From positions 1 through 31,931 of the forward strand of contig JBFHUT010000001.1 in the NCBI GenBank assembly GCA_041589935.1: a stretch of 31,931 nucleotides of DNA, given 5' to 3'. Source of the stretch: Minisyncoccia bacterium. GTDB taxonomy: Bacteria; Patescibacteriota; Minisyncoccia; Phycocordibacterales; UBA918. The translations under genes and the position numbers were made by a program. The notes under the pieces were generated by a model. The model had not been told where the DNA came from, did no database searches, and was given only the letters and a program-made list of their open reading frames with translations. How positions within the stretch are numbered: position 1 is the stretch's first letter; each line of letters begins with the position of its first letter. Shown in pieces: positions 4,860 to 11,266 of the stretch.

Positions 4860-5078
4860 ATGAAAGGTTCAGTAGTTCGAAAGCGTGACGAAGGTTACGG
4901 TTTTATCAAGCCAGAGGAAGGTGAGAAGGATGTATTCTTCCACGCTTCATCAGTTGTTGATGTAACATTTGATGATCTTAAAGAAGGTGACGCAGTAACA
5001 TTTGATGTTGAGGAAGGTCCAAAAGGTCCAGCAGCAACTAATGTTAAGAAAGCTGCAGCCGCTCCAGCAACTGCATAG
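4860..5078 (+). CDS. cspA: Cold-shock protein (CSD)
   Basis: RNP1 GYGFI and RNP2 VFFH, then EEGPKGPAATNV. Confidence 0.93.
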   Translation: MKGSVVRKRDEGYGFIKPEEGEKDVFFHASSVVDVTFDDLKEGDAVTFDVEEGPKGPAATNVKKAAAAPATA

Positions 5079-5088
5079 TTAACTTATT

Positions 5089-5119
5089 AAAAACACCCGG
5101 GCATTCCCCGGGTGTTTTT
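5089..5119 (+). terminator. Intrinsic terminator (A-tract/U-tract, potentially bidirectional)
   Basis: AAAAACACCCGGG-cattc-CCCGGGTGTTTTT. Confidence 0.85.
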
Positions 5120-5157
5120 AATTTGTACATACATTCATATGTCATAATAGAGATACT

Positions 5158-5547
5158 ATGCTCTTTCTTTCGATAGTGCACCACTATCTACTTTGGCATT
5201 ACACCCGGGCTTTTGTAGAAATCTCTCATGTCTGGCGCAATTTTTTGTGGTTTGTTGTTCATTTTTTCTCCCTCCCACAACTATTAAGATCTTGGCTCTC
5301 TCCGTGGAAAAGAATAGTCGAAGATCGTGGCGAGGCTTGGAATTTTGAAGACTTGGCTGGCTTCATTATTATTGGCCTTGTCTCCCGCATCATTGGCTTT
5401 ATATTACGCACGATTATCATCACTATTGGTACGATGAGCCTGCTCTTTACAATTGCTGGTGGGATTATCGTTTATCTTTTCTGGATTGTGGCACCAGCGA
5501 TAATCATCGGACTATTGCTGCTAGGAATTAGCTTGCTGCTATTTTAA
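5158..5547 (+). CDS. Hypothetical membrane protein preceding the Clp-like ATPase
   Basis: Aromatic-rich N-terminus (WHY...W.NF...FFS...SPWKR) and a long C-terminal hydrophobic hairpin. Lies 6 nt before the ATPase gene. Confidence 0.75.
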   Translation: MLFLSIVHHYLLWHYTRAFVEISHVWRNFLWFVVHFFSLPQLLRSWLSPWKRIVEDRGEAWNFEDLAGFIIIGLVSRIIGFILRTIIITIGTMSLLFTIAGGIIVYLFWIVAPAIIIGLLLLGISLLLF

Positions 5548-5553
5548 TTATTT

Positions 5554-7995
5554 ATGAAAACCCTAGCTCACAGTATCAAACAGTACCAGCCAGCAATCCG
5601 TCTGACTACTTTTTTAAGTCGCGATAAATTATCGGTCGTGCGCACAATTAGTTTCTTAGGACTGTTTTTCTCAGGCTCGGCAACTGCGGCTACTTACTAC
5701 TTCTTCCAAGGTCAATATACCGCCACATTGTTTGGTATTTCATGTCTCTTTGCAGCTGCCTGGCTTGAGCAAATGATCACTTTTGCTTACCACAATAGCT
5801 ATTACTTTAAAGGCTTGAATTCATTAATCGGCCTGGAGCCAGAAAAGATCGAGGGAGCTACTTACGATGTAGCAGAAGTGGTACTAAAGCACCCGGACGA
5901 TGTCACAGTAGCATTTTGTAATTCTTGGTTTGGCTCTCAAGCTCTCATTCGAAGTGGTCTCACCTCAGAACAAATACACTCTTTCCTTAATTCACCACGG
6001 CAACAAATCACGGCTGACACGGTGATGCTACCAGAAGATGAAATATTTAGCGTCATCGGTTTGGGTAAATATCTCCTTTCACACGACGTACAATTCAAAG
6101 CCCTGTTTAAAGAAGCTGGCATCCAAGATGCAATCTTCCTTGGTTCTTTACGCTGGATCGTTGGGACGCATCACCAGGAAAAACGACGTTTGCGCTGGTG
6201 GAGTAAAGACAACCTATCGCAAACCACCGGCATCGGACGCGAATGGGCTTACGGGGTTGCCTACTTACTAGAAAAGTACTCACGCGACATTCGCACCAGC
6301 GCCGTATTTTCTACTCTTAGTAATGACAGTAGTTTTGCGACTGAGAAAGTTCGGGAGATCGAGTCAGCCCTCGTTCGCGCCAAAGCCTCAAATGTGTTAA
6401 TCATCGGTGAAGCAGGAGTAGGAAAGATAGACTTAGTAATGGAAGTCGCCCGCCGTATGAGACTAGGGCAATCACTTGATGCTATATCAGGTAAACAAAT
6501 TATAGTCCTTGATACCAATCGCTTGTTTGCTACTCACCGCGACAAACAAGAACTTGAGCTGACTATCCTTAAGATGTTTGATGAAGCTGCTGAAGCTGGA
6601 AACATTATTGTGGTCATCGAAAACCTCAGTACTTTCATCAGGGAAGCAGAAGCAATGGGAGTATTCATTCCGGAACTACTAGATCAATACCTAGCTACTC
6701 CCGAGATACAGATTATTGCCACCGATACACCTGGCGCCTACCACACACATCTTGAGACACTTGGTGCCTTTGCTAGAAGATTTGCCGAAATCTTAGTCGA
6801 CAGTCCAGACCTCAGCGCTACCACTCGCGTCCTGCAGAGTATTGCCCTACAGAATGAAGTAAAATACAAGACTCTATTCACCTACGCTGGTTTACATGCC
6901 ATCACTACAGCAGCCGATCGCTACATTGTAGAAGGTGTAATGCCAGATAAGGCCATTGAACTTTTAGTCGACGTCGCCACTAAAGCCGGACAAAAACAAG
7001 TCGCCATCATCACTGAAGATTTTGTTTACGAAGTAGTAAGCGAGAAAACCGGCGTACCGGCGGGACCAATTCAAGACAGCGAAAGAGAACTGCTCTTGCA
7101 CCTTGAAGACCGTCTACACCAACAAGTCATAGGACAACAAAGCGCTCTTGATGCAATCGCTCGCACAATGCGTCGCGCGCGCGCTGGGATTCAGTCTTCT
7201 GAAAAGCCAATCGGTTCCTTCTTATTCCTCGGACCAACCGGGGTTGGTAAGACTGAAACCGCTAAAGCCCTAGCTAAAATCTTCTTCGGTGGAGAAAATA
7301 AGCTGCAGCGCATCGACATGTCTGAGTACAGCGGAGAAGATGCTCTCGAAAGACTAATCGGTGACGGGGAACAAGCTGGTGTACTGCCAACTATGCTGCG
7401 CGAACACCCATACTGTGTACTACTACTAGACGAGTTTGAAAAAGCGACCAGACCAGTTCATGACGTCTTTCTTCAAGTGCTTGATGAGGGTATGTTTACC
7501 GATTCCCGCGGAGGTAAGGTGAATGCACGTAACACCATCATCATAGCGACCTCCAACGCTGGCAGCCAATTAATCCTTCGTACCGTACAACAGCGAAAAG
7601 AATTAGCGACTTTGGCACAAGAGATAATCGACCACATAGTGAGGGAGGGGGTTTATAGACCAGAACTCATTAACCGCTTTGATAGCACCATCATCTTTGA
7701 GCCACTTAAGATCGAGGAGCAGACCGAAGTAGCCAGCCTCATGCTTGGTGGACTATACGAAAGAGTAAAGGAGCGCGGTTATGATATACAAGTCAGTAAA
7801 AATCTACTCGATGTTCTAGTAGAGAAAGGCTACAACCCAGAATTTGGCGCTCGCCCAATGCAGCGAGTCTTGCAAGATGTCATTGAAGAAAAAATTGCCC
7901 AAAAAATTATTTCTGGCGCAGTTAAAAAAGGCGACACTATACCCCTTAGCATGTCTGACTTCACCACAGAAGAACTTAACGTTCAGGGAACTTAG
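5554..7995 (+). CDS. ClpA/ClpB-family AAA+ ATPase with N-terminal TM helices (atypical)
   Basis: Two AAA modules: D1 GEAGVGKI (degenerate) and D2 GPTGVGKT, RIDMSEY, LLLDEFEKA, RPELINRFD, FGARPMQR. Two hydrophobic helices at about aa 33-78. Confidence 0.85.
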   Translation: MKTLAHSIKQYQPAIRLTTFLSRDKLSVVRTISFLGLFFSGSATAATYYFFQGQYTATLFGISCLFAAAWLEQMITFAYHNSYYFKGLNSLIGLEPEKIEGATYDVAEVVLKHPDDVTVAFCNSWFGSQALIRSGLTSEQIHSFLNSPRQQITADTVMLPEDEIFSVIGLGKYLLSHDVQFKALFKEAGIQDAIFLGSLRWIVGTHHQEKRRLRWWSKDNLSQTTGIGREWAYGVAYLLEKYSRDIRTSAVFSTLSNDSSFATEKVREIESALVRAKASNVLIIGEAGVGKIDLVMEVARRMRLGQSLDAISGKQIIVLDTNRLFATHRDKQELELTILKMFDEAAEAGNIIVVIENLSTFIREAEAMGVFIPELLDQYLATPEIQIIATDTPGAYHTHLETLGAFARRFAEILVDSPDLSATTRVLQSIALQNEVKYKTLFTYAGLHAITTAADRYIVEGVMPDKAIELLVDVATKAGQKQVAIITEDFVYEVVSEKTGVPAGPIQDSERELLLHLEDRLHQQVIGQQSALDAIARTMRRARAGIQSSEKPIGSFLFLGPTGVGKTETAKALAKIFFGGENKLQRIDMSEYSGEDALERLIGDGEQAGVLPTMLREHPYCVLLLDEFEKATRPVHDVFLQVLDEGMFTDSRGGKVNARNTIIIATSNAGSQLILRTVQQRKELATLAQEIIDHIVREGVYRPELINRFDSTIIFEPLKIEEQTEVASLMLGGLYERVKERGYDIQVSKNLLDVLVEKGYNPEFGARPMQRVLQDVIEEKIAQKIISGAVKKGDTIPLSMSDFTTEELNVQGT

Positions 7996-8053: not shown

Positions 8054-8308
8054 ATGAGCAAGGGGTGTGGCATGGACAGGATCAGAAACCTAGATGAACA
8101 AGAAACCCAGTATTATCTAGATGCAGTAAGAGACCGTGATGAGTATTCATTCAAACAACTGCACCACCAAACTTCCAATGAATTTGTTTTTAAGGGGGAA
8201 GCTTACAAGTTACTTTCACCGGAAGAAAAAGAATGGGCTGATGATCTTCTTAAAAAAATAGACAAGGAAAAAGATGTTTGGGAGTCTGACGATGAGTTTA
8301 TCTATTAA
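8054..8308 (+). CDS. Hypothetical acidic protein (84 aa; start may be ATG 8071)
   Basis: Promoter TTGAAT (7997-8002), 16 nt, TATAGT (8019-8024). Followed by a bidirectional terminator. Confidence 0.55.
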   Translation: MSKGCGMDRIRNLDEQETQYYLDAVRDRDEYSFKQLHHQTSNEFVFKGEAYKLLSPEEKEWADDLLKKIDKEKDVWESDDEFIY

Positions 8309-8332: not shown

Positions 8333-8363
8333 AAAAAAACCGCTGCTACACAGCGGTTTTTTT
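8333..8363. terminator. Bidirectional intrinsic terminator between convergent genes
   Basis: AAAAAAACCGCTG-ctaca-CAGCGGTTTTTTT. Confidence 0.85.
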
Positions 8364-8378
8364 CTTGTTCACAAATAT

Positions 8379-9152
8379 CTACACGTTGGCTTGCAGTGCC
8401 ATCTGCTGTTGCAAGAGCTGGATCAAGAGCAGCATCAACTCTTGGAGCTGACGTTGAAGTTCATCTCGGTCAGTTGTCTTTCCGTAATCCTTGTACTTAT
8501 TCTTTAGATCACTTTTATACTCTTTATACTCTTCCTTGTACTCCTTTTTCTTTTCTTTGTAGTCTTCTTTCTTCTCTTTGTATTCGTACTTATCGTGATC
8601 TGCCATTACGTACTCCGCCTTGTCCTCAGCGGCTTCGGCTAGTTCCTCTGCCTTTTTGTAATCACCTTCATCATAAGCTTCTTCAGCTAACGTTAGGTAG
8701 TTACGAGCTTTGTTTAGTCTAGCTTCCAACTCATCTTTCTCATCACCATCCTCCATTCCCTCGAGATAATCATCAGCTTCATTGATGGCTGACTCTGCTT
8801 CATCAATCGCGTCAGCTGCTTCGGATCTGTCATCCTCGTCTTCGTTTTCGTCTTTATCCTCGTCTTCGACTGACTCCACTGCATCTTCAACCTCAGCTAC
8901 AGAAATACCAAGCTCTGCCGCAATGAGAACGTAAACTTCATCAAGGTTAGTAGTTTCGTATTCAAATTCTTTATATTTATCTACACCATCTACTTCGTAC
9001 TCAACTTCAACAACTGTTGACTCTGAGTGCACATCGATCTCGATTTCAAGCTCCTCATAAGCGCTGCCAGCATAGGCAGAAATGGCAGTTCCGAAAACCA
9101 ATGCTATTGCAGCCAGGCTAACGGCGAAATAATTAATAAGGGTTCTTTGCAT
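8379..9152 (-). CDS. Secreted, highly acidic helical/coiled-coil hypothetical protein
   Basis: ATG 9152 gives a classical signal peptide (MQRTLINYFAVSLAAIALVFGTAISAYA). E/D-rich body, YKE-rich tract, C-terminal LQRQLQELMLLLIQLLQQQ. Confidence 0.75.
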   Translation of the reverse strand: MQRTLINYFAVSLAAIALVFGTAISAYAGSAYEELEIEIDVHSESTVVEVEYEVDGVDKYKEFEYETTNLDEVYVLIAAELGISVAEVEDAVESVEDEDKDENEDEDDRSEAADAIDEAESAINEADDYLEGMEDGDEKDELEARLNKARNYLTLAEEAYDEGDYKKAEELAEAAEDKAEYVMADHDKYEYKEKKEDYKEKKKEYKEEYKEYKSDLKNKYKDYGKTTDRDELQRQLQELMLLLIQLLQQQMALQANV

Positions 9153-9239
9153 AATAATTAGAAATTTATGCTTCAATTTGTAAGTGGTTCTTTGCAACAT
9201 ACGTTGTAACCGCATTTTACACATAATTACCTAAGACGT

Positions 9240-9352: not shown

Positions 9353-9470
9353 GAATTTAGTATATACCCAACCGCTAGACAAGCAAGGTGGTTATACACA
9401 CTTCTCCAGAGAGACCTTATTTAAAGCCAGATTGGTCAACCTTCTCCGTCTGACTTACAATAGTACTTAT

Positions 9471-10364
9471 ATGAATGCAAAAAATATCGTAATTATTGTC
9501 TTGTTACTCGTTTTAGCTAGCGCCGTTGCTTTCTTATTCATGAAAAGCAGCGATACAATAGTCGAGAATCCGACTACTGAAACAGAGACAAATGTGGAAA
9601 TTTTACCAGTTGAACCTGACGGGGGAATTGGCGACGGAGCTGAGTTCCTACCAGAGGAAACTTTGCAGGAACGAGATAGCAAATCACTTATTGGTACTTC
9701 TGTAGATGGTAGTGAGATTGTCGCTTATCACTTTGGTTCTGGTGATACTGAAATTCTCTTAGTAGGAGGGGTGCATGGTGGCTATTCACCAAACACCAGC
9801 GCTCTCGCTAAGGAGTTTGTAAGTTACTTAGAAAAGAACGAGGTGACAATTCCGGAGGGAGTAATGGTAACGGTTATTCCAAATTTAAATCCTGACGGTC
9901 TTACAAAGAGCGGAGCGGCTGGTCGTTTCAATAGCAACACCGTTGATCTCAACCGAAACTTTGATTGTGAGTGGGCTAAGACTGGAGTATGGAGAAGCCA
10001 GGAAGTGAGTGGTGGTGATGCACCATTTTCAGAACCAGAGGCTGCTTCCTTACGAGACTATGTTAATAAATATAATCCAGAGGCAGCGATTGTGTGGTTT
10101 AGCGCGGAAGGAAAGGTTTACCCTTCAGCTTGTGATGGCGTACCTAGCAAACAATCAGTAGAGCTCGCTGCCACCTTCGCAACCGCTGCTGGTTATGGAG
10201 CAGCCGCTGAGTTTGATGCCTACGCTATTACTGGCGACATGGTGAATTGGATGGCAAAGCAGGACATTTCCGCTATTAGCGTTCTACTCTCTGACCATCA
10301 AAACACCGAGTGGGACAGGAACCTAGCTGGTCTTCAAGCGGTTCTTAAAACTTACGCTGAATAA
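9471..10364 (+). CDS. M14-family carboxypeptidase homolog, probably catalytically inactive, membrane-anchored
   Basis: N-terminal TM. LLVGGVHGGY, PNLNPDG and GRFNSNTVDLNRNF are present, but the Zn-ligand Glu and His and the catalytic Glu positions are substituted. Start moved to ATG 9471. Confidence 0.8.
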   Translation: MNAKNIVIIVLLLVLASAVAFLFMKSSDTIVENPTTETETNVEILPVEPDGGIGDGAEFLPEETLQERDSKSLIGTSVDGSEIVAYHFGSGDTEILLVGGVHGGYSPNTSALAKEFVSYLEKNEVTIPEGVMVTVIPNLNPDGLTKSGAAGRFNSNTVDLNRNFDCEWAKTGVWRSQEVSGGDAPFSEPEAASLRDYVNKYNPEAAIVWFSAEGKVYPSACDGVPSKQSVELAATFATAAGYGAAAEFDAYAITGDMVNWMAKQDISAISVLLSDHQNTEWDRNLAGLQAVLKTYAE

Positions 10365-10366
10365 TA

Positions 10367-11266
10367 ATGAACCAAACTCCTAAAGTAATTCTTGGTGCAC
10401 TATTTCTATTAGTTACGCTTGGTCTTATCTTCATGACCTTTACTGAAGAAGAGCCAGTACTAGAAAGTGCCCCCGTTGAACCAGAACCAGAATTAATCAG
10501 CGCTCCATCAGTACCAACTACCACCCAAAAAACAATTGGTTCTTCTGTGAAAGGTCGATCAATCGAGGCTTACTCTTTTGGTACCGGTGAGACAAACTTA
10601 CTGTTTGTCGGAGGAGTGCATGGCGGTTATGAGTGGAACAGTATCCTACTGGCGTATGAAATGATTGATCACTTTGCTACTGATTCAAGTTCAATTCCTG
10701 AGAACGTAACAGTACATATTATTCCAAACCTCAACCCTGACGGCCTATTTGTGGCCACCCTACTTGAGGGACGCTTCGAGGCAACAGACATCCTCAACAA
10801 CGACATGCATACCAGTGGACTTGGTCGTATGAATGCCAACGATGTAGATCTTAACCGCAACTTCGATTGTAAGTGGGCACCGGAGAGTTCGTGGCGAAGC
10901 AAGACTGTTAGCGCCGGTACCGCTGCCTTCTCAGAACCAGAAGCACAAGCGCTAAAAAACTACGTTGCGGAGATAAGTCCAGCGTCAGTTGTGTTCTGGC
11001 ATAGTAAAGCAAACAACGTCTATGCTTCTGAATGCGAAAATGGAGTACTGCCTGAAACTCTAGCTCTAATGTCTGCTTACGCTGATGCAGCTAGTTACGG
11101 AGCCGTACCGGTCTTTGATGCGTACCCGATCACCGGTGATGCGGAAGGTTGGCTTGCTTCAATCGGCATTCCAGCAGTAACGGTAGAACTTGAAACCCGC
11201 ACCAGTATTGAGTGGGACAGGAACTTAGCAGGCACCACCGCTATCCTTAATATGTACGGCAAGTAG
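10367..11266 (+). CDS. M14-family zinc carboxypeptidase (MpaA/DUF2817-like), membrane-anchored
   Basis: GGVHGGYE, PNLNPDG, GRMNANDVDLNRNF, FSEPE, FWHS, VTVEL. Confidence 0.85.
   Translation: MNQTPKVILGALFLLVTLGLIFMTFTEEEPVLESAPVEPEPELISAPSVPTTTQKTIGSSVKGRSIEAYSFGTGETNLLFVGGVHGGYEWNSILLAYEMIDHFATDSSSIPENVTVHIIPNLNPDGLFVATLLEGRFEATDILNNDMHTSGLGRMNANDVDLNRNFDCKWAPESSWRSKTVSAGTAAFSEPEAQALKNYVAEISPASVVFWHSKANNVYASECENGVLPETLALMSAYADAASYGAVPVFDAYPITGDAEGWLASIGIPAVTVELETRTSIEWDRNLAGTTAILNMYGK

What the first reader, a model, noticed from the sequence alone, without database searches (positions are those of the whole stretch)
5158..7995. Membrane-tethered ClpA/B-like ATPase lacking its unfoldase motifs, with a small membrane partner gene
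The protein keeps the Clp two-ring layout but lacks most motifs needed for threading. D1 Walker A is GEAGVGKI (Thr to Ile, 6406-6429) and Walker B is VVIEN instead of hhhhDE (6610-6624). The D1 pore-loop Tyr (KYRG) is replaced by THRDKQ. D2 is catalytically intact (GPTGVGKT, LLLDE), but its GYVG pore loop is deleted (RLIGDGEQAG, 7351-7380). There is no ClpB/C middle domain and no IGF/IGL ClpP-docking loop. The N-terminus has two TM helices, and the D1 Arg finger (FARRF) is retained. A 129-aa aromatic-rich membrane protein gene lies 6 nt upstream. This looks like a two-component membrane AAA+ machine with a function other than classical proteolysis or disaggregation, for example remodelling, extraction or envelope assembly. 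It is the best candidate here for an undescribed system.
Basis: partly seen in the sequence, partly recalled or inferred. Interest (0 to 1): 0.7.

Follow-up and report, generated by a model that had tools for sequence, protein, structure and literature searches.

The report
Membrane Clp-like ATPase with obligate partner
Two adjacent genes encode a small membrane protein and a membrane-anchored relative of the ClpB/ClpA protein-unfolding motors; the motor keeps only one working ATPase ring and lacks the usual substrate-gripping loops, and the pair is found (sometimes fused) in about a third of sampled ultra-small CPR bacteria, so it is probably an undescribed membrane machine and not the Clp protease subunit it is annotated as.

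Summary
The ORF at 5554-7995 (813 aa) has a hydrophobic helical hairpin, a divergent Clp_N fold, a degenerate D1 (GEAGVGKI, VVIEN, no pore Tyr) and an intact D2 whose GYVG loop is shortened by six residues. It has no M-domain and no ClpP-docking loop. ORF 5158-5547 (129 aa) lies 6 nt upstream.

This is not one-off decay. About 300 clusters at 50% identity share the N-region. D2 motifs are nearly invariant, D1 is degenerate in many different ways, and no member examined has GYVG.

In a 401-genome phylum sample the partner profile hits 134 genomes. In 47 of 47 unfused loci that could be assessed, the family ATPase lies directly downstream. In 15 genomes the partner is fused to the ATPase N-terminus. 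A complex prediction gave weak support (0.41 against a best control of 0.00). ClpP was not found in this genome.

A probable ortholog pair in cultivated Southlakia (SEML1_0700/0701) is non-essential, and insertions in both genes are depleted on passaging. Function remains inferred: a D2-driven, ClpP-independent membrane remodeller, possibly linked to the envelope.

This scan has noted the same family before on other genomes, with two follow-ups that reached the same reading. I found no paper describing it.

The parts
5093..5119 (+). Intrinsic-terminator-like hairpin (9-bp G+C-rich stem, 5-nt loop, T5) that ends the upstream cold-shock-domain gene. It places the partner and ATPase genes in a transcription unit of their own.
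   Evidence: Read directly from the sequence. The CSD gene at 4860-5078 was identified with Pfam.
5158..5547 (+). Partner gene, 129 aa. It is a small hydrophobic, aromatic-rich protein. The family signature is W-[WH]-Y ... FS.P.LL.TLF.PWKR ... NL.SR.IG...R, followed by a hydrophobic stretch of about 44 residues containing W109, P113 and G123.
   Evidence: No Pfam or NCBIfam hit. 222 close homologs of about 129 aa. Alignment A2. AF2 model with pLDDT 92.6. Hydropathy. Only uncharacterised structural neighbours.
5554..7995 (+). Membrane-anchored class-I Clp/Hsp100-like ATPase, 813 aa.
5563..5805 (+). N-terminal amphipathic helix (aa 4-20) and helical hairpin (aa 23-50 and 56-84), read as the membrane anchor. 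TM2 carries the clade-conserved W-[LIV]-E-Q motif.
   Evidence: AF2 model m2347b50fdf3b, pLDDT above 90 in this part. Hydropathy. WLEQ-type motif in 108 of 119 clade members.
5851..6192 (+). Divergent Clp_N-like helical domain (aa 100-213).
   Evidence: VIA-align Z 9.4 (106 residues aligned) to the N-domain of a Plasmodium Clp/Hsp100-family chaperone (4xbi), Z 8.9 to 4iod and Z 8.1 to the Hsp104 NTD 5u2l. Foldseek gives ClpB NTD 1khy with probability about 0.5. No Pfam Clp_N hit.
6193..6279 (+). Family signature RWWS[KR]DNL..(G)IG..WAYG..Y.L.KY (aa 214-242), lying between the Clp_N-like domain and D1. It is the most conserved part of the N-region and has low pLDDT in the monomer model.
   Evidence: Alignments A1 and A3. 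Low pLDDT at aa 215-260. The pattern scan of 185,579 species genomes returned no record named outside CPR/Patescibacteria; a few carry only generic names.
6355..6993 (+). D1 AAA+ module (aa 268-480), degenerate. Walker A is GEAGVGKI (nt 6406-6429), Walker B is VVIEN (nt 6610-6624), the pore loop is THRDKQ in place of KYRG, and the Arg-finger pair RR is kept (FARRF).
   Evidence: The only Pfam signal is a sub-threshold AAA_lid_9 match at aa 421-476.
7009..7953 (+). D2 AAA+ module with its D2-small domain (aa 486-800), catalytically intact. It has GPTGVGKT (nt 7231-7254), LLLDE (nt 7420-7434), ATSNAG, NRFD and GARPMQR. The pore loop is shortened to RLIGDGEQAG (nt 7351-7380). There is no ClpP-docking tripeptide.
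   Evidence: Pfam AAA_2 142 bits and ClpB_D2-small 76 bits. Also.

Best explanation
The two genes encode the subunits of one membrane-bound AAA+ machine that is specific to Patescibacteria (CPR).

The large subunit derives from a class-I Clp/Hsp100 ATPase of ClpB/ClpA type. It is held at the cytoplasmic face of the membrane by an N-terminal helical hairpin. It keeps a Clp_N-like domain, and D1 and D2 are joined directly with no M-domain.

D1 is a pseudo-ATPase ring. In this clade the P-loop Lys and the Arg-finger pair are kept, but the Mg-binding Thr is Ile or Met and the catalytic Glu is Asn. This resembles a natural Walker-B 'trap'. D1 therefore most likely serves as an assembly or scaffold ring that at most binds nucleotide.

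D2 is the only motor. It has lost the GYVG Tyr loop, so the machine probably does not grip and thread polypeptides in the canonical hand-over-hand way. It does not feed ClpP.

The 129-aa partner is a hydrophobic hairpin protein with a conserved aromatic and basic cytoplasmic head (FS.P.LL.TLF.PWKR). It binds the ATPase's N-terminal region, meaning the hairpin and/or the RWWS...WAYG motif. It acts as an obligate co-anchor or client-selecting subunit.

Inferred working model: ATP turnover in D2 drives rigid-body movements of the ring. These movements remodel or dislodge membrane-associated clients held by the Clp_N-like domain, the RWWS motif and the partner head. Cell-envelope and division proteins are the most plausible clients.

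Shown here: the anatomy, family-wide conservation, strict gene linkage, natural fusions, the lack of ClpP-docking features (ClpP absent in some carriers), and restriction to CPR. Inferred: hexamer formation, D1's nucleotide state, non-threading action, and client identity.
For: Family-wide pattern. In 95 diverse full-length members, D2 Walker A is GPTGVGKT in 86, and the DE, sensor-1, Arg-finger and GAR motifs are kept. The D1 P-loop Lys is present in only 27 of 95 and Ser/Thr in about 4 of 95. The second Walker B acid is N in 35, D in 32, H in 13 and E in 3. Column conservation is 0.65 for D2 against 0.44 for D1. None of 47 further genome-derived members has GYVG.

The degenerate state is itself conserved within the window's clade.

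The D1-D2 linker is 27-31 aa in the 95 family members, against 160 aa in this genome's own canonical ClpB. No ClpP tripeptide is found in 94 of 95.

ClpP was not found in this genome (97.7% complete). It was also not found in five other carriers of the pair: G003, G066, G106, G128 and G133. A canonical ClpB with an M-domain, KFRGEFE and GYVG coexists in this genome, so the protein is not a ClpB replacement.

Partnership. The partner ORF lies directly upstream in 27 of 27 unfused loci that could be assessed and in 20 of 20 further partner-positive genomes. 42 of 43 genomes positive for the N-region are also positive for the partner. There are 15 single-ORF fusions with the order partner, RWWS, D1, D2, spread over at least nine GTDB families. 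One 726-aa fused form is in AFDB.

Complex prediction gave weak support: score 0.41 against a best control of 0.00. That mark was reached by 58 of 80 solved complexes and 2 of 110 mismatched pairs, but a pass at 0.60 or below is weak. The runs agreed on at least 77% of contacts and partner pLDDT was at least 72.

Structure models.

CPR restriction.

Neighbouring genes differ between lineages but often belong to the envelope or divisome: FtsQ, DivIC, MraZ/MraW, YkuD, S11 and M14.

In the Southlakia Tn-seq table (PMC10633639, Table S1), SEML1_0700 (860 aa, same Pfam layout) and the overlapping upstream SEML1_0701 (127 aa) are both called NE, NE, GD. Reads fall from 4124 to 2517 to 1638 and from 258 to 157 to 51.
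Against: There is no experimental datum on this protein, and no RNA data.

About half of the wider family keeps one aromatic in the shortened D2 loop (GSF/GSY). Some lineages keep a D1 that looks intact (GKT/GKS with DE, loci L101-L103). 'No threading' and 'dead D1' are therefore not family-wide rules.

The hairpin in this protein is only moderately hydrophobic.

The AF2 partner model draws aa 63-128 as one long helix, so the hairpin topology is inferred from the positive-inside rule and from the fusions, not from the model.

The link to envelope genes is qualitative. In genomes of roughly 800 genes such neighbours are not rare by chance.

Orthology of SEML1_0700/0701 rests on length, Pfam layout and gene order. 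I did not test it by sequence.
Confidence: 0.6

Rival explanations
1. It is still a threading unfoldase or extractase. In this reading it is a membrane-tethered ClpB-like machine that pulls membrane or aggregated proteins through its pore with non-canonical loops. The partner acts as an adaptor, and FtsH might act downstream.
For: The D2 catalytic apparatus is under strong purifying selection. A Clp_N-like substrate-binding fold is kept. Roughly half of the family has one aromatic in the shortened loop (GSF/GSY). FtsH is present in the genome.
Against: This clade's loop ([DN]GE..G) has no aromatic or bulky hydrophobic residue. The D1 pore Tyr is Asp. From established knowledge of ClpB/Hsp104, substituting the pore-loop Tyr abolishes translocation. 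None of 47+95 members keeps GYVG.
Confidence: 0.25
2. It is a mechanotransmission device. D2 ATP hydrolysis would be relayed through the two hairpins to membrane-anchored cell-wall or divisome enzymes, in the manner of FtsEX or MacB. No polypeptide would enter the pore.
For: The pore loops are lost while the motor is intact. Both subunits are membrane-embedded. Neighbours recur from the envelope set: FtsQ, DivIC, MraZ/W, YkuD, S11, and a tandem of membrane-anchored M14 peptidases that is syntenic in this clade. MurT/GatD lie next to the probable Southlakia pair.
Against: The extracytoplasmic turns of both hairpins are only a few residues long. No neighbour other than the partner is conserved across the phylum. 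Enrichment of envelope genes was not tested statistically.
Confidence: 0.1
3. It is what public annotation calls it: the ATP-binding subunit (ClpA/ClpC) of a ClpP protease.
For: Source names on close homologs. Best NCBIfam hits are ClpB and ClpA. ClpP is present in 354 of 401 sampled genomes of the phylum.
Against: Scores fall far below the curated cut-offs: ClpA 357 against 993, ClpB 423 against 1232. There is no IG[FL] docking loop. ClpP was not found in this genome or in five other carriers.
Confidence: 0.03
4. It is a decaying ClpB/ClpC paralog with no function of its own, and the small ORF upstream is incidental.
For: D1 motifs are degenerate. The probable Southlakia ortholog is non-essential.
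Against: About 300 clusters at 50% identity keep the full length. D2 is nearly invariant. Gene linkage is strict and there are 15 fusions. Insertions in both Southlakia genes are depleted on passaging.
Confidence: 0.02

Closest known systems
ClpB / Hsp104 (class-I Hsp100 disaggregases)
   Same: Two tandem AAA+ modules plus a D2-small domain. It is the best sequence match: E. coli ClpB D2 gives 268 bits and D1 84 bits, and TIGR03346 is the top NCBIfam hit. The N-domain has a Clp_N-like fold. Neither has a ClpP loop.
   Different: No M-domain, so no DnaK-coupling element. Both pore-loop tyrosines are lost. D1 Walker A and B are degenerate. It has an N-terminal membrane hairpin and an obligate small membrane partner. 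Its score is a third of the ClpB cut-off. A canonical ClpB coexists in the same genome.
ClpA / ClpC (ClpP-coupled class-I unfoldases)
   Same: D1 is joined directly to D2 without a long M-domain, giving a single collinear HMM match (TIGR02639, aa 268-797). There is an N-terminal Clp_N-type domain.
   Different: No IG[FL] ClpP-docking loop, no pore tyrosines, D1 is dead, and it is membrane-anchored. ClpP was not found in this genome.
Torsins with LAP1/LULL1 (eukaryotic; from established knowledge, not tested here)
   Same: This is a working analogy only. Torsin is an AAA+ protein of the Clp/Hsp100 D2 lineage that lacks aromatic pore-loop residues, sits at a membrane and depends on a membrane-protein partner.
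   Different: Torsins have a single ring, lack their own Arg finger (the partner supplies it) and act in the ER lumen. Here D2 keeps its Arg finger, and the partner is a small hairpin protein with no AAA-like fold. No homology is implied.
Pex1/Pex6 with Pex15/Pex26, and FtsH (membrane-tethered AAA+ machines; from established knowledge)
   Same: Pex1/6 is a double-ring AAA+ with a degenerate D1 and an active D2, recruited to a membrane by a small membrane protein. FtsH is a bacterial AAA+ anchored by two N-terminal TM helices per subunit.
   Different: Both Pex1/6 and FtsH keep aromatic pore loops and thread their substrates. FtsH also carries an M41 protease domain, which is absent here. They belong to the classical AAA clade, not to the Hsp100 family.

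Membership tests
Clp/Hsp100 class-I superfamily (two-tier AAA+) | An AAA_2-type D2 module with a ClpB_D2-small domain, preceded by a D1 AAA+ module | tested here: met
   PF07724 scores 142 bits (cut-off 27) and PF10431 scores 76.2 bits (cut-off 21.9). D1 aligns to ClpB residues 160-400 at 84 bits.
ClpB (TIGR03346 equivalog) | Whole-protein score above the curated cut-off | tested here: not met
   422.8 bits against a cut-off of 1232.1, matched in two separate stretches.
ClpB | Coiled-coil M-domain between D1 and D2 | tested here: not met
   aa 477 aligns to ClpB 400 and aa 485 to ClpB 530. The linker is 30 aa here against 160 aa in this genome's own ClpB, and 27-31 aa in all 95 family members.
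ClpB / ClpA / ClpC | Pore-loop tyrosines (D1 K-Y-R, D2 G-Y-V-G) | tested here: not met
   D1 has Asp in place of Tyr. The D2 loop is six residues shorter and has no aromatic. None of the 95+47 members has GYVG.
ClpB / ClpA / ClpC | Catalytically competent D1 (GxxGxGK[ST], hhhhDE) | tested here: not met
   GEAGVGKI and VVIEN. This state is conserved within the clade.
ClpA / ClpC / ClpE (ClpP partners) | IG[FL]-type ClpP-docking loop in D2, and a ClpP gene in the genome | tested here: not met
   No [ILVM]G[FLM] between sensor-1 and the Arg finger in this protein or in 94 of 95 members. PF00574 was not found in the 97.7%-complete assembly, while the control rang in 12 of 14 reference genomes. TIGR02639 scores 357 against a cut-off of 993.
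ClpV / TssH (T6SS) | Score above the TIGR03345 cut-off | tested here: not met
   318.3 bits against a cut-off of 884.95. I did not look for T6SS sheath genes.
Clp_N (double Clp-N) N-terminal domain | Pfam PF02861 match, or the Clp_N fold | tested here: inconclusive
   No Pfam hit. The AF2 model of aa 100-211 aligns to Clp/Hsp100-family N-domains with Z 8.1-9.4 over 106-107 residues. For all-helical folds this lies in the range where chance resemblance is possible.
FtsH | C-terminal M41 peptidase domain | tested here: not met
   No peptidase domain appears in the Pfam scan. The genome's FtsH is a separate gene on contig C68.
The CPR partner-linked membrane Hsp100 family proposed here | N-terminal hydrophobic hairpin or fused partner domain; RWWS...WAYG motif before D1; intact D2 without GYVG; partner gene directly upstream | tested here: met

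The most novel reading that the evidence does not exclude
This would be a new functional class of Hsp100 machine that does not thread substrates. A D2-only motor ring, clamped to the membrane by 12 or more hairpin helices from itself and its partner, would convert ATP hydrolysis into movements within the membrane plane. Those movements would switch or assemble cell-wall and divisome enzymes in CPR bacteria. It would be a bacterial counterpart of the Torsin/LAP1 logic and a missing piece of the reduced CPR division and envelope apparatus.
Probability: 0.15. Interest if true: 0.85.

Novelty: new variant of a known kind. Interest (0 to 1): 0.62.

Why it matters
Patescibacteria make up a large share of bacterial diversity, yet their envelope biology and proteostasis are poorly understood. 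About one sampled genome in three carries this pair (134 of 401). [quoted passage not shown]

For AAA+ mechanism, the family is a natural experiment. It is an Hsp100 under strong selection that has discarded the pore-loop tyrosines, the M-domain and D1 catalysis, and has gained a membrane anchor and an obligate partner. How such a ring does work is an open question.

The question can be tested. A probable ortholog pair exists in genetically tractable Saccharibacteria and tolerates transposon insertions, so knock-outs, tagging and substrate trapping are feasible.

Tried and rejected
- Pfam and NCBIfam on the partner gave no family. The protein atlas and the AFDB fold search returned only uncharacterised CPR proteins, plus a weak resemblance to YggT (TM 0.66, 14% identity) that I do not rely on.
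- Foldseek of the N-region against the PDB gave no hit at E <= 0.001. VIA-align was needed to see the Clp_N resemblance.
- Literature searches (Patescibacteria/ClpB/membrane-anchored; candidate phyla radiation/Hsp100/AAA+; Saccharibacteria/Tn-seq/Clp) found no paper describing the family. The main text of PMC10633639 does not mention it.
A motif sub-alignment, A3, worked.
- Sequencing runs: no RNA holder is listed, only four DNA runs from one marine metagenome study. I did not lay reads.
- Complex prediction was unreachable twice before it ran. It returns no contacts, so the interface is unknown.
- One of the 16 long-frame partner hits (G182) proved to be two overlapping ORFs and not a fusion.
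- I considered that SEML1_0512 might be the Southlakia ortholog. It is a canonical ClpC with Clp_N and UVR domains, so I rejected it.
- I did not build a D2 phylogeny against canonical ClpB/ClpC. Whether the family descends from ClpB or from ClpA/C is left open.
Full report
OBSERVATION

The window carries two co-oriented ORFs: 5158-5547 (129 aa, P0002) and 5554-7995 (813 aa, P0001). They are separated by six bases (TAA ttattt ATG). They follow a clear terminator hairpin (5093-5119) that ends the upstream cold-shock-domain gene. The pair therefore looks like its own transcription unit with translational coupling.

Pfam finds only the D2 half of the large protein: AAA_2 at aa 551-711 (142 bits) and ClpB_D2-small at aa 719-796. 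NCBIfam ranks ClpB, ClpA, ClpK/G and ClpV highest, all far below their curated cut-offs.

- D1 has GEAGVGKI where ClpB has GEPGVGKT.
- D1 has VVIEN where ClpB has LFIDE.
- D1 has ATHRDKQELE where ClpB has AGAKYRGEFE.
- The D2 loop is GD--G----EQAG where ClpB has GAPPGYVGYEEGG.
- D1 (ending at ClpB residue 400) joins D2 (starting at ClpB residue 530) directly, so there is no M-domain.
- D2 keeps its Walker A and B, sensor-1, Arg finger and sensor-2.
- No ClpP-docking tripeptide is present.

N-TERMINAL REGION

An AF2 model built on a 40-sequence alignment reaches pLDDT 87. It gives an amphipathic helix (aa 4-20), a helical hairpin (aa 23-50 and 56-84) and a helical domain (aa 100-213).

The helical domain aligns to Clp/Hsp100-family N-domains: Z 9.4 to 4xbi, 8.9 to 4iod and 8.1 to 5u2l, with 106-107 residues aligned. 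Foldseek gives ClpB NTD at probability about 0.5.

In this particular protein the hairpin is only moderately hydrophobic (1.29 and 1.52). However, 83 of 95 family members have two segments at 1.6 or more on the Kyte-Doolittle scale.

Between the Clp_N-like domain and D1 lies the most conserved N-terminal element, RWWS[KR]DNL..GIG..WAYG..Y.L.KY. It has low confidence in the monomer model.

NOT A ONE-OFF

A word-indexed search with aa 1-480 returned 720 hits. The top 120 are all about 810 aa, 60-76% identical, and labelled Kaiser-, Nomura-, Pace- or Parcubacteria. An exhaustive HMMER search with aa 1-275 found 300 clusters at 50% identity, 183 of them at E <= 1e-10.

In 95 diverse full-length members:
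- D2 Walker A is GPTGVGKT in 86, and the other D2 motifs are nearly invariant.
- The D1 P-loop Lys survives in 27 and the Ser/Thr in about 4.
- The catalytic-Glu position of D1 is N, D or H in 80.
- The D2 loop between the two flanking glycines is 5-7 residues, against 11 in ClpB.
- Column conservation is 0.65 for D2 and 0.44 for D1.

A further 47 genome-derived members show the same pattern, and none has GYVG. Two qualifications follow. About half of the family has one aromatic in the short loop (GSF/GSY). A few lineages keep a D1 that looks intact (GKS with DE).

In the window's own clade the degenerate state is itself conserved: at least 80 of 119 have GE[AP]GVGK[IM], 104 have IEN and 107 have RRF. 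With Lys and the Arg fingers kept, Thr changed to Ile or Met, and Glu changed to Asn, D1 looks like a ring that at most binds nucleotide without hydrolysing it.

THE PARTNER

P0002 has 222 close homologs of about 129 aa and no family assignment.

I built a profile from diverse members (A2). Invariant positions are F37, S38, R77 and P113; nearly invariant are W13, F47, P49, W50, G80, W109 and G123. This profile hits 134 of 401 evenly sampled genomes of the phylum. The stricter N-region profile of the ATPase (A1) hits 43 of the 401, and 42 of those 43 are also partner-positive.

In 30 ATPase-anchored loci:
- the partner is the ORF directly upstream in 27;
- it is cut off by a contig end in 1;
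- it is fused to the ATPase in 2.

In 20 further partner-positive genomes that the strict A1 threshold had missed, a family ATPase (RWWS region, D1 and D2) lies directly downstream in all 20.

Of 16 partner hits lying in long reading frames, 15 are true single-ORF fusions with the order partner, RWWS region, D1, D2. They are spread over at least nine GTDB families. In the two examined in detail (L051, L060) the partner domain replaces the ATPase's own hairpin. AFDB independently holds a 726-aa 'AAA+ ATPase' with the partner fold at residues 10-117.

These Rosetta-stone fusions also constrain topology. The partner's C-terminus must be cytoplasmic. By the positive-inside rule its conserved head is cytoplasmic too, so the 36-44-residue hydrophobic stretch is most simply a hairpin. 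The AF2 monomer model, however, draws it as one long helix, so this point is inferred.

A complex prediction of the ATPase N-region with the partner gave weak support. The score was 0.41 against a best control of 0.00. That mark was reached by 58 of 80 solved complexes and 2 of 110 mismatched pairs, but a pass at 0.60 or below is weak. The runs agreed on at least 77% of contacts, and partner pLDDT was at least 72. Given the strong prior from linkage and fusion I count this as mild corroboration.

CONTEXT

Apart from the partner, no neighbour is conserved across the phylum. Neighbours do recur from one functional area:
- FtsQ-type POTRA protein directly upstream in two sister families.
- A YkuD plus S11 carboxypeptidase fusion.
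- MraZ/MraW.
- DivIC.
- YkuD with PG_binding_4.
- In the window's own clade, a syntenic tandem of membrane-anchored M14 peptidases.

This suggests an envelope or division connection. It was not tested statistically, and in genomes of roughly 800 genes such neighbours are common.

The genome (918 kb, 97.7% complete) has a canonical ClpB and FtsH. ClpP was not detected and neither was DnaK. ClpP is present in 354 of 401 sampled genomes. That tally includes one unpublished genome, G154, and no other claim here rests on it. ClpP is missing from at least six carriers of the pair, so the machine does not depend on ClpP.

A pattern scan for the RWWS motif over 185,579 species genomes of bacteria and archaea confirmed 90 loci. 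None of the 80 listed records is named outside CPR/Patescibacteria; a few carry only generic names such as 'bacterium' or 'uncultured bacterium'.

EXPERIMENTAL HOOK

The Southlakia epibionticum Tn-seq tables (PMC10633639, Tables S1/S2) list SEML1_0700, an 'AAA family ATPase' of 860 aa with the same Pfam layout as this family: AAA_2 at 544-706, D2-small at 713-792, AAA_lid_9 at 415-471. Overlapping it upstream is a 127-aa hypothetical gene, SEML1_0701, and both lie next to MurT/GatD.

Both genes are called non-essential at P0 and P1 and 'growth defect' at P2. Normalised reads fall from 4124 to 2517 to 1638 for SEML1_0700 and from 258 to 157 to 51 for SEML1_0701. Orthology is inferred from layout and gene order only. 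If it holds, the pair is dispensable, contributes to fitness, and its two genes behave alike.

INTERPRETATION

Shown here:
- A CPR-restricted, strongly conserved two-gene module (sometimes one fused gene) encoding a membrane-anchored Hsp100 derivative and a small hairpin protein.
- D2 is the only conserved motor.
- The canonical pore tyrosines, the M-domain, ClpP docking and (mostly) D1 catalysis are lost.

Inferred:
- Hexamer formation, with D1 as a scaffold ring.
- A ClpP-independent remodelling action at the membrane that does not rely on canonical Tyr-loop threading.
- Envelope or division proteins as plausible clients.

The main rival is a threading extractase with non-canonical loops. 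It remains viable, especially for the GSF/GSY lineages. The public annotation as a Clp protease subunit is contradicted for this genome, and simple decay is contradicted by the conservation data.

PRIOR NOTES

This scan has noted the same family on other genomes at least eight times. Two follow-ups (e1-703648, e1-703601) reached the same reading. They are not independent evidence. New in this report:
- the fusions;
- the phylum-wide one-in-three distribution seen through the partner profile;
- the ClpP co-occurrence test;
- the CPR-only motif scan;
- the structure models;
- the complex prediction;
- the Southlakia Tn-seq link.

Noticed in passing
own genome (G000), contigs C17, C7; loci L001, L198, L199: The assembly (97.7% complete, 89 contigs) encodes a canonical ClpB with an M-domain and intact pore loops. 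Neither ClpP (PF00574) nor DnaK (PF00012, TIGR02350) was found; only MreB/FtsA-like weak hits appeared. A ClpB without its Hsp70 partner would be unusual if it is not an assembly gap.
   Followed up: partly
window 9432-11266: A tandem of two M14 carboxypeptidase-like genes lies downstream. The same tandem follows the pair in close relatives (L007, L009, L011). In this window it is separated from the pair by an 84-aa ORF and a minus-strand gene, so it is syntenic but not in the same operon.
   Followed up: partly
window 8054-8308 and 8379-9224 (minus strand), 8333-8363: An 84-aa ORF with no family and a 281-aa very acidic, Lys/Glu-rich membrane-anchored protein (weak DUF4398 match) converge on a bidirectional terminator-like hairpin. 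Neither gene is present at this position in relatives.
   Followed up: no
window 5120-5157: Only about 38 nt separate the terminator of the CSD gene from the partner's ATG. There is a CATAAT/ATAATA -10-like box 8-10 nt before the ATG and no Shine-Dalgarno sequence. The operon mRNA may be leaderless or nearly so.
   Followed up: no
L033:2872-4263 (G324), directly downstream of the ATPase: A single 464-aa protein combines a YkuD L,D-transpeptidase domain with an S11 D-Ala-D-Ala carboxypeptidase domain. This fusion of two cell-wall enzymes is uncommon.
   Followed up: no
L065, L066, L068, L069, L070 (five genomes of other families): A CsoR-type metal-sensing repressor (PF02583, about 80 aa) sits one or two genes upstream of the partner in several lineages. 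A YkuD/PG_binding_4 protein, a CAP-domain protein and DivIC lie downstream in most of these loci.
   Followed up: partly
L101-L103 (G017, G237, G174; one GTDB family): A sub-lineage has longer ATPases (904-907 aa) with an apparently intact D1 (GE.GVGKS, LYIDE[MI]) and a long D2 loop without tyrosine. Its partners match the profile mainly in their N-terminal half. This may be the least derived branch of the family.
   Followed up: no
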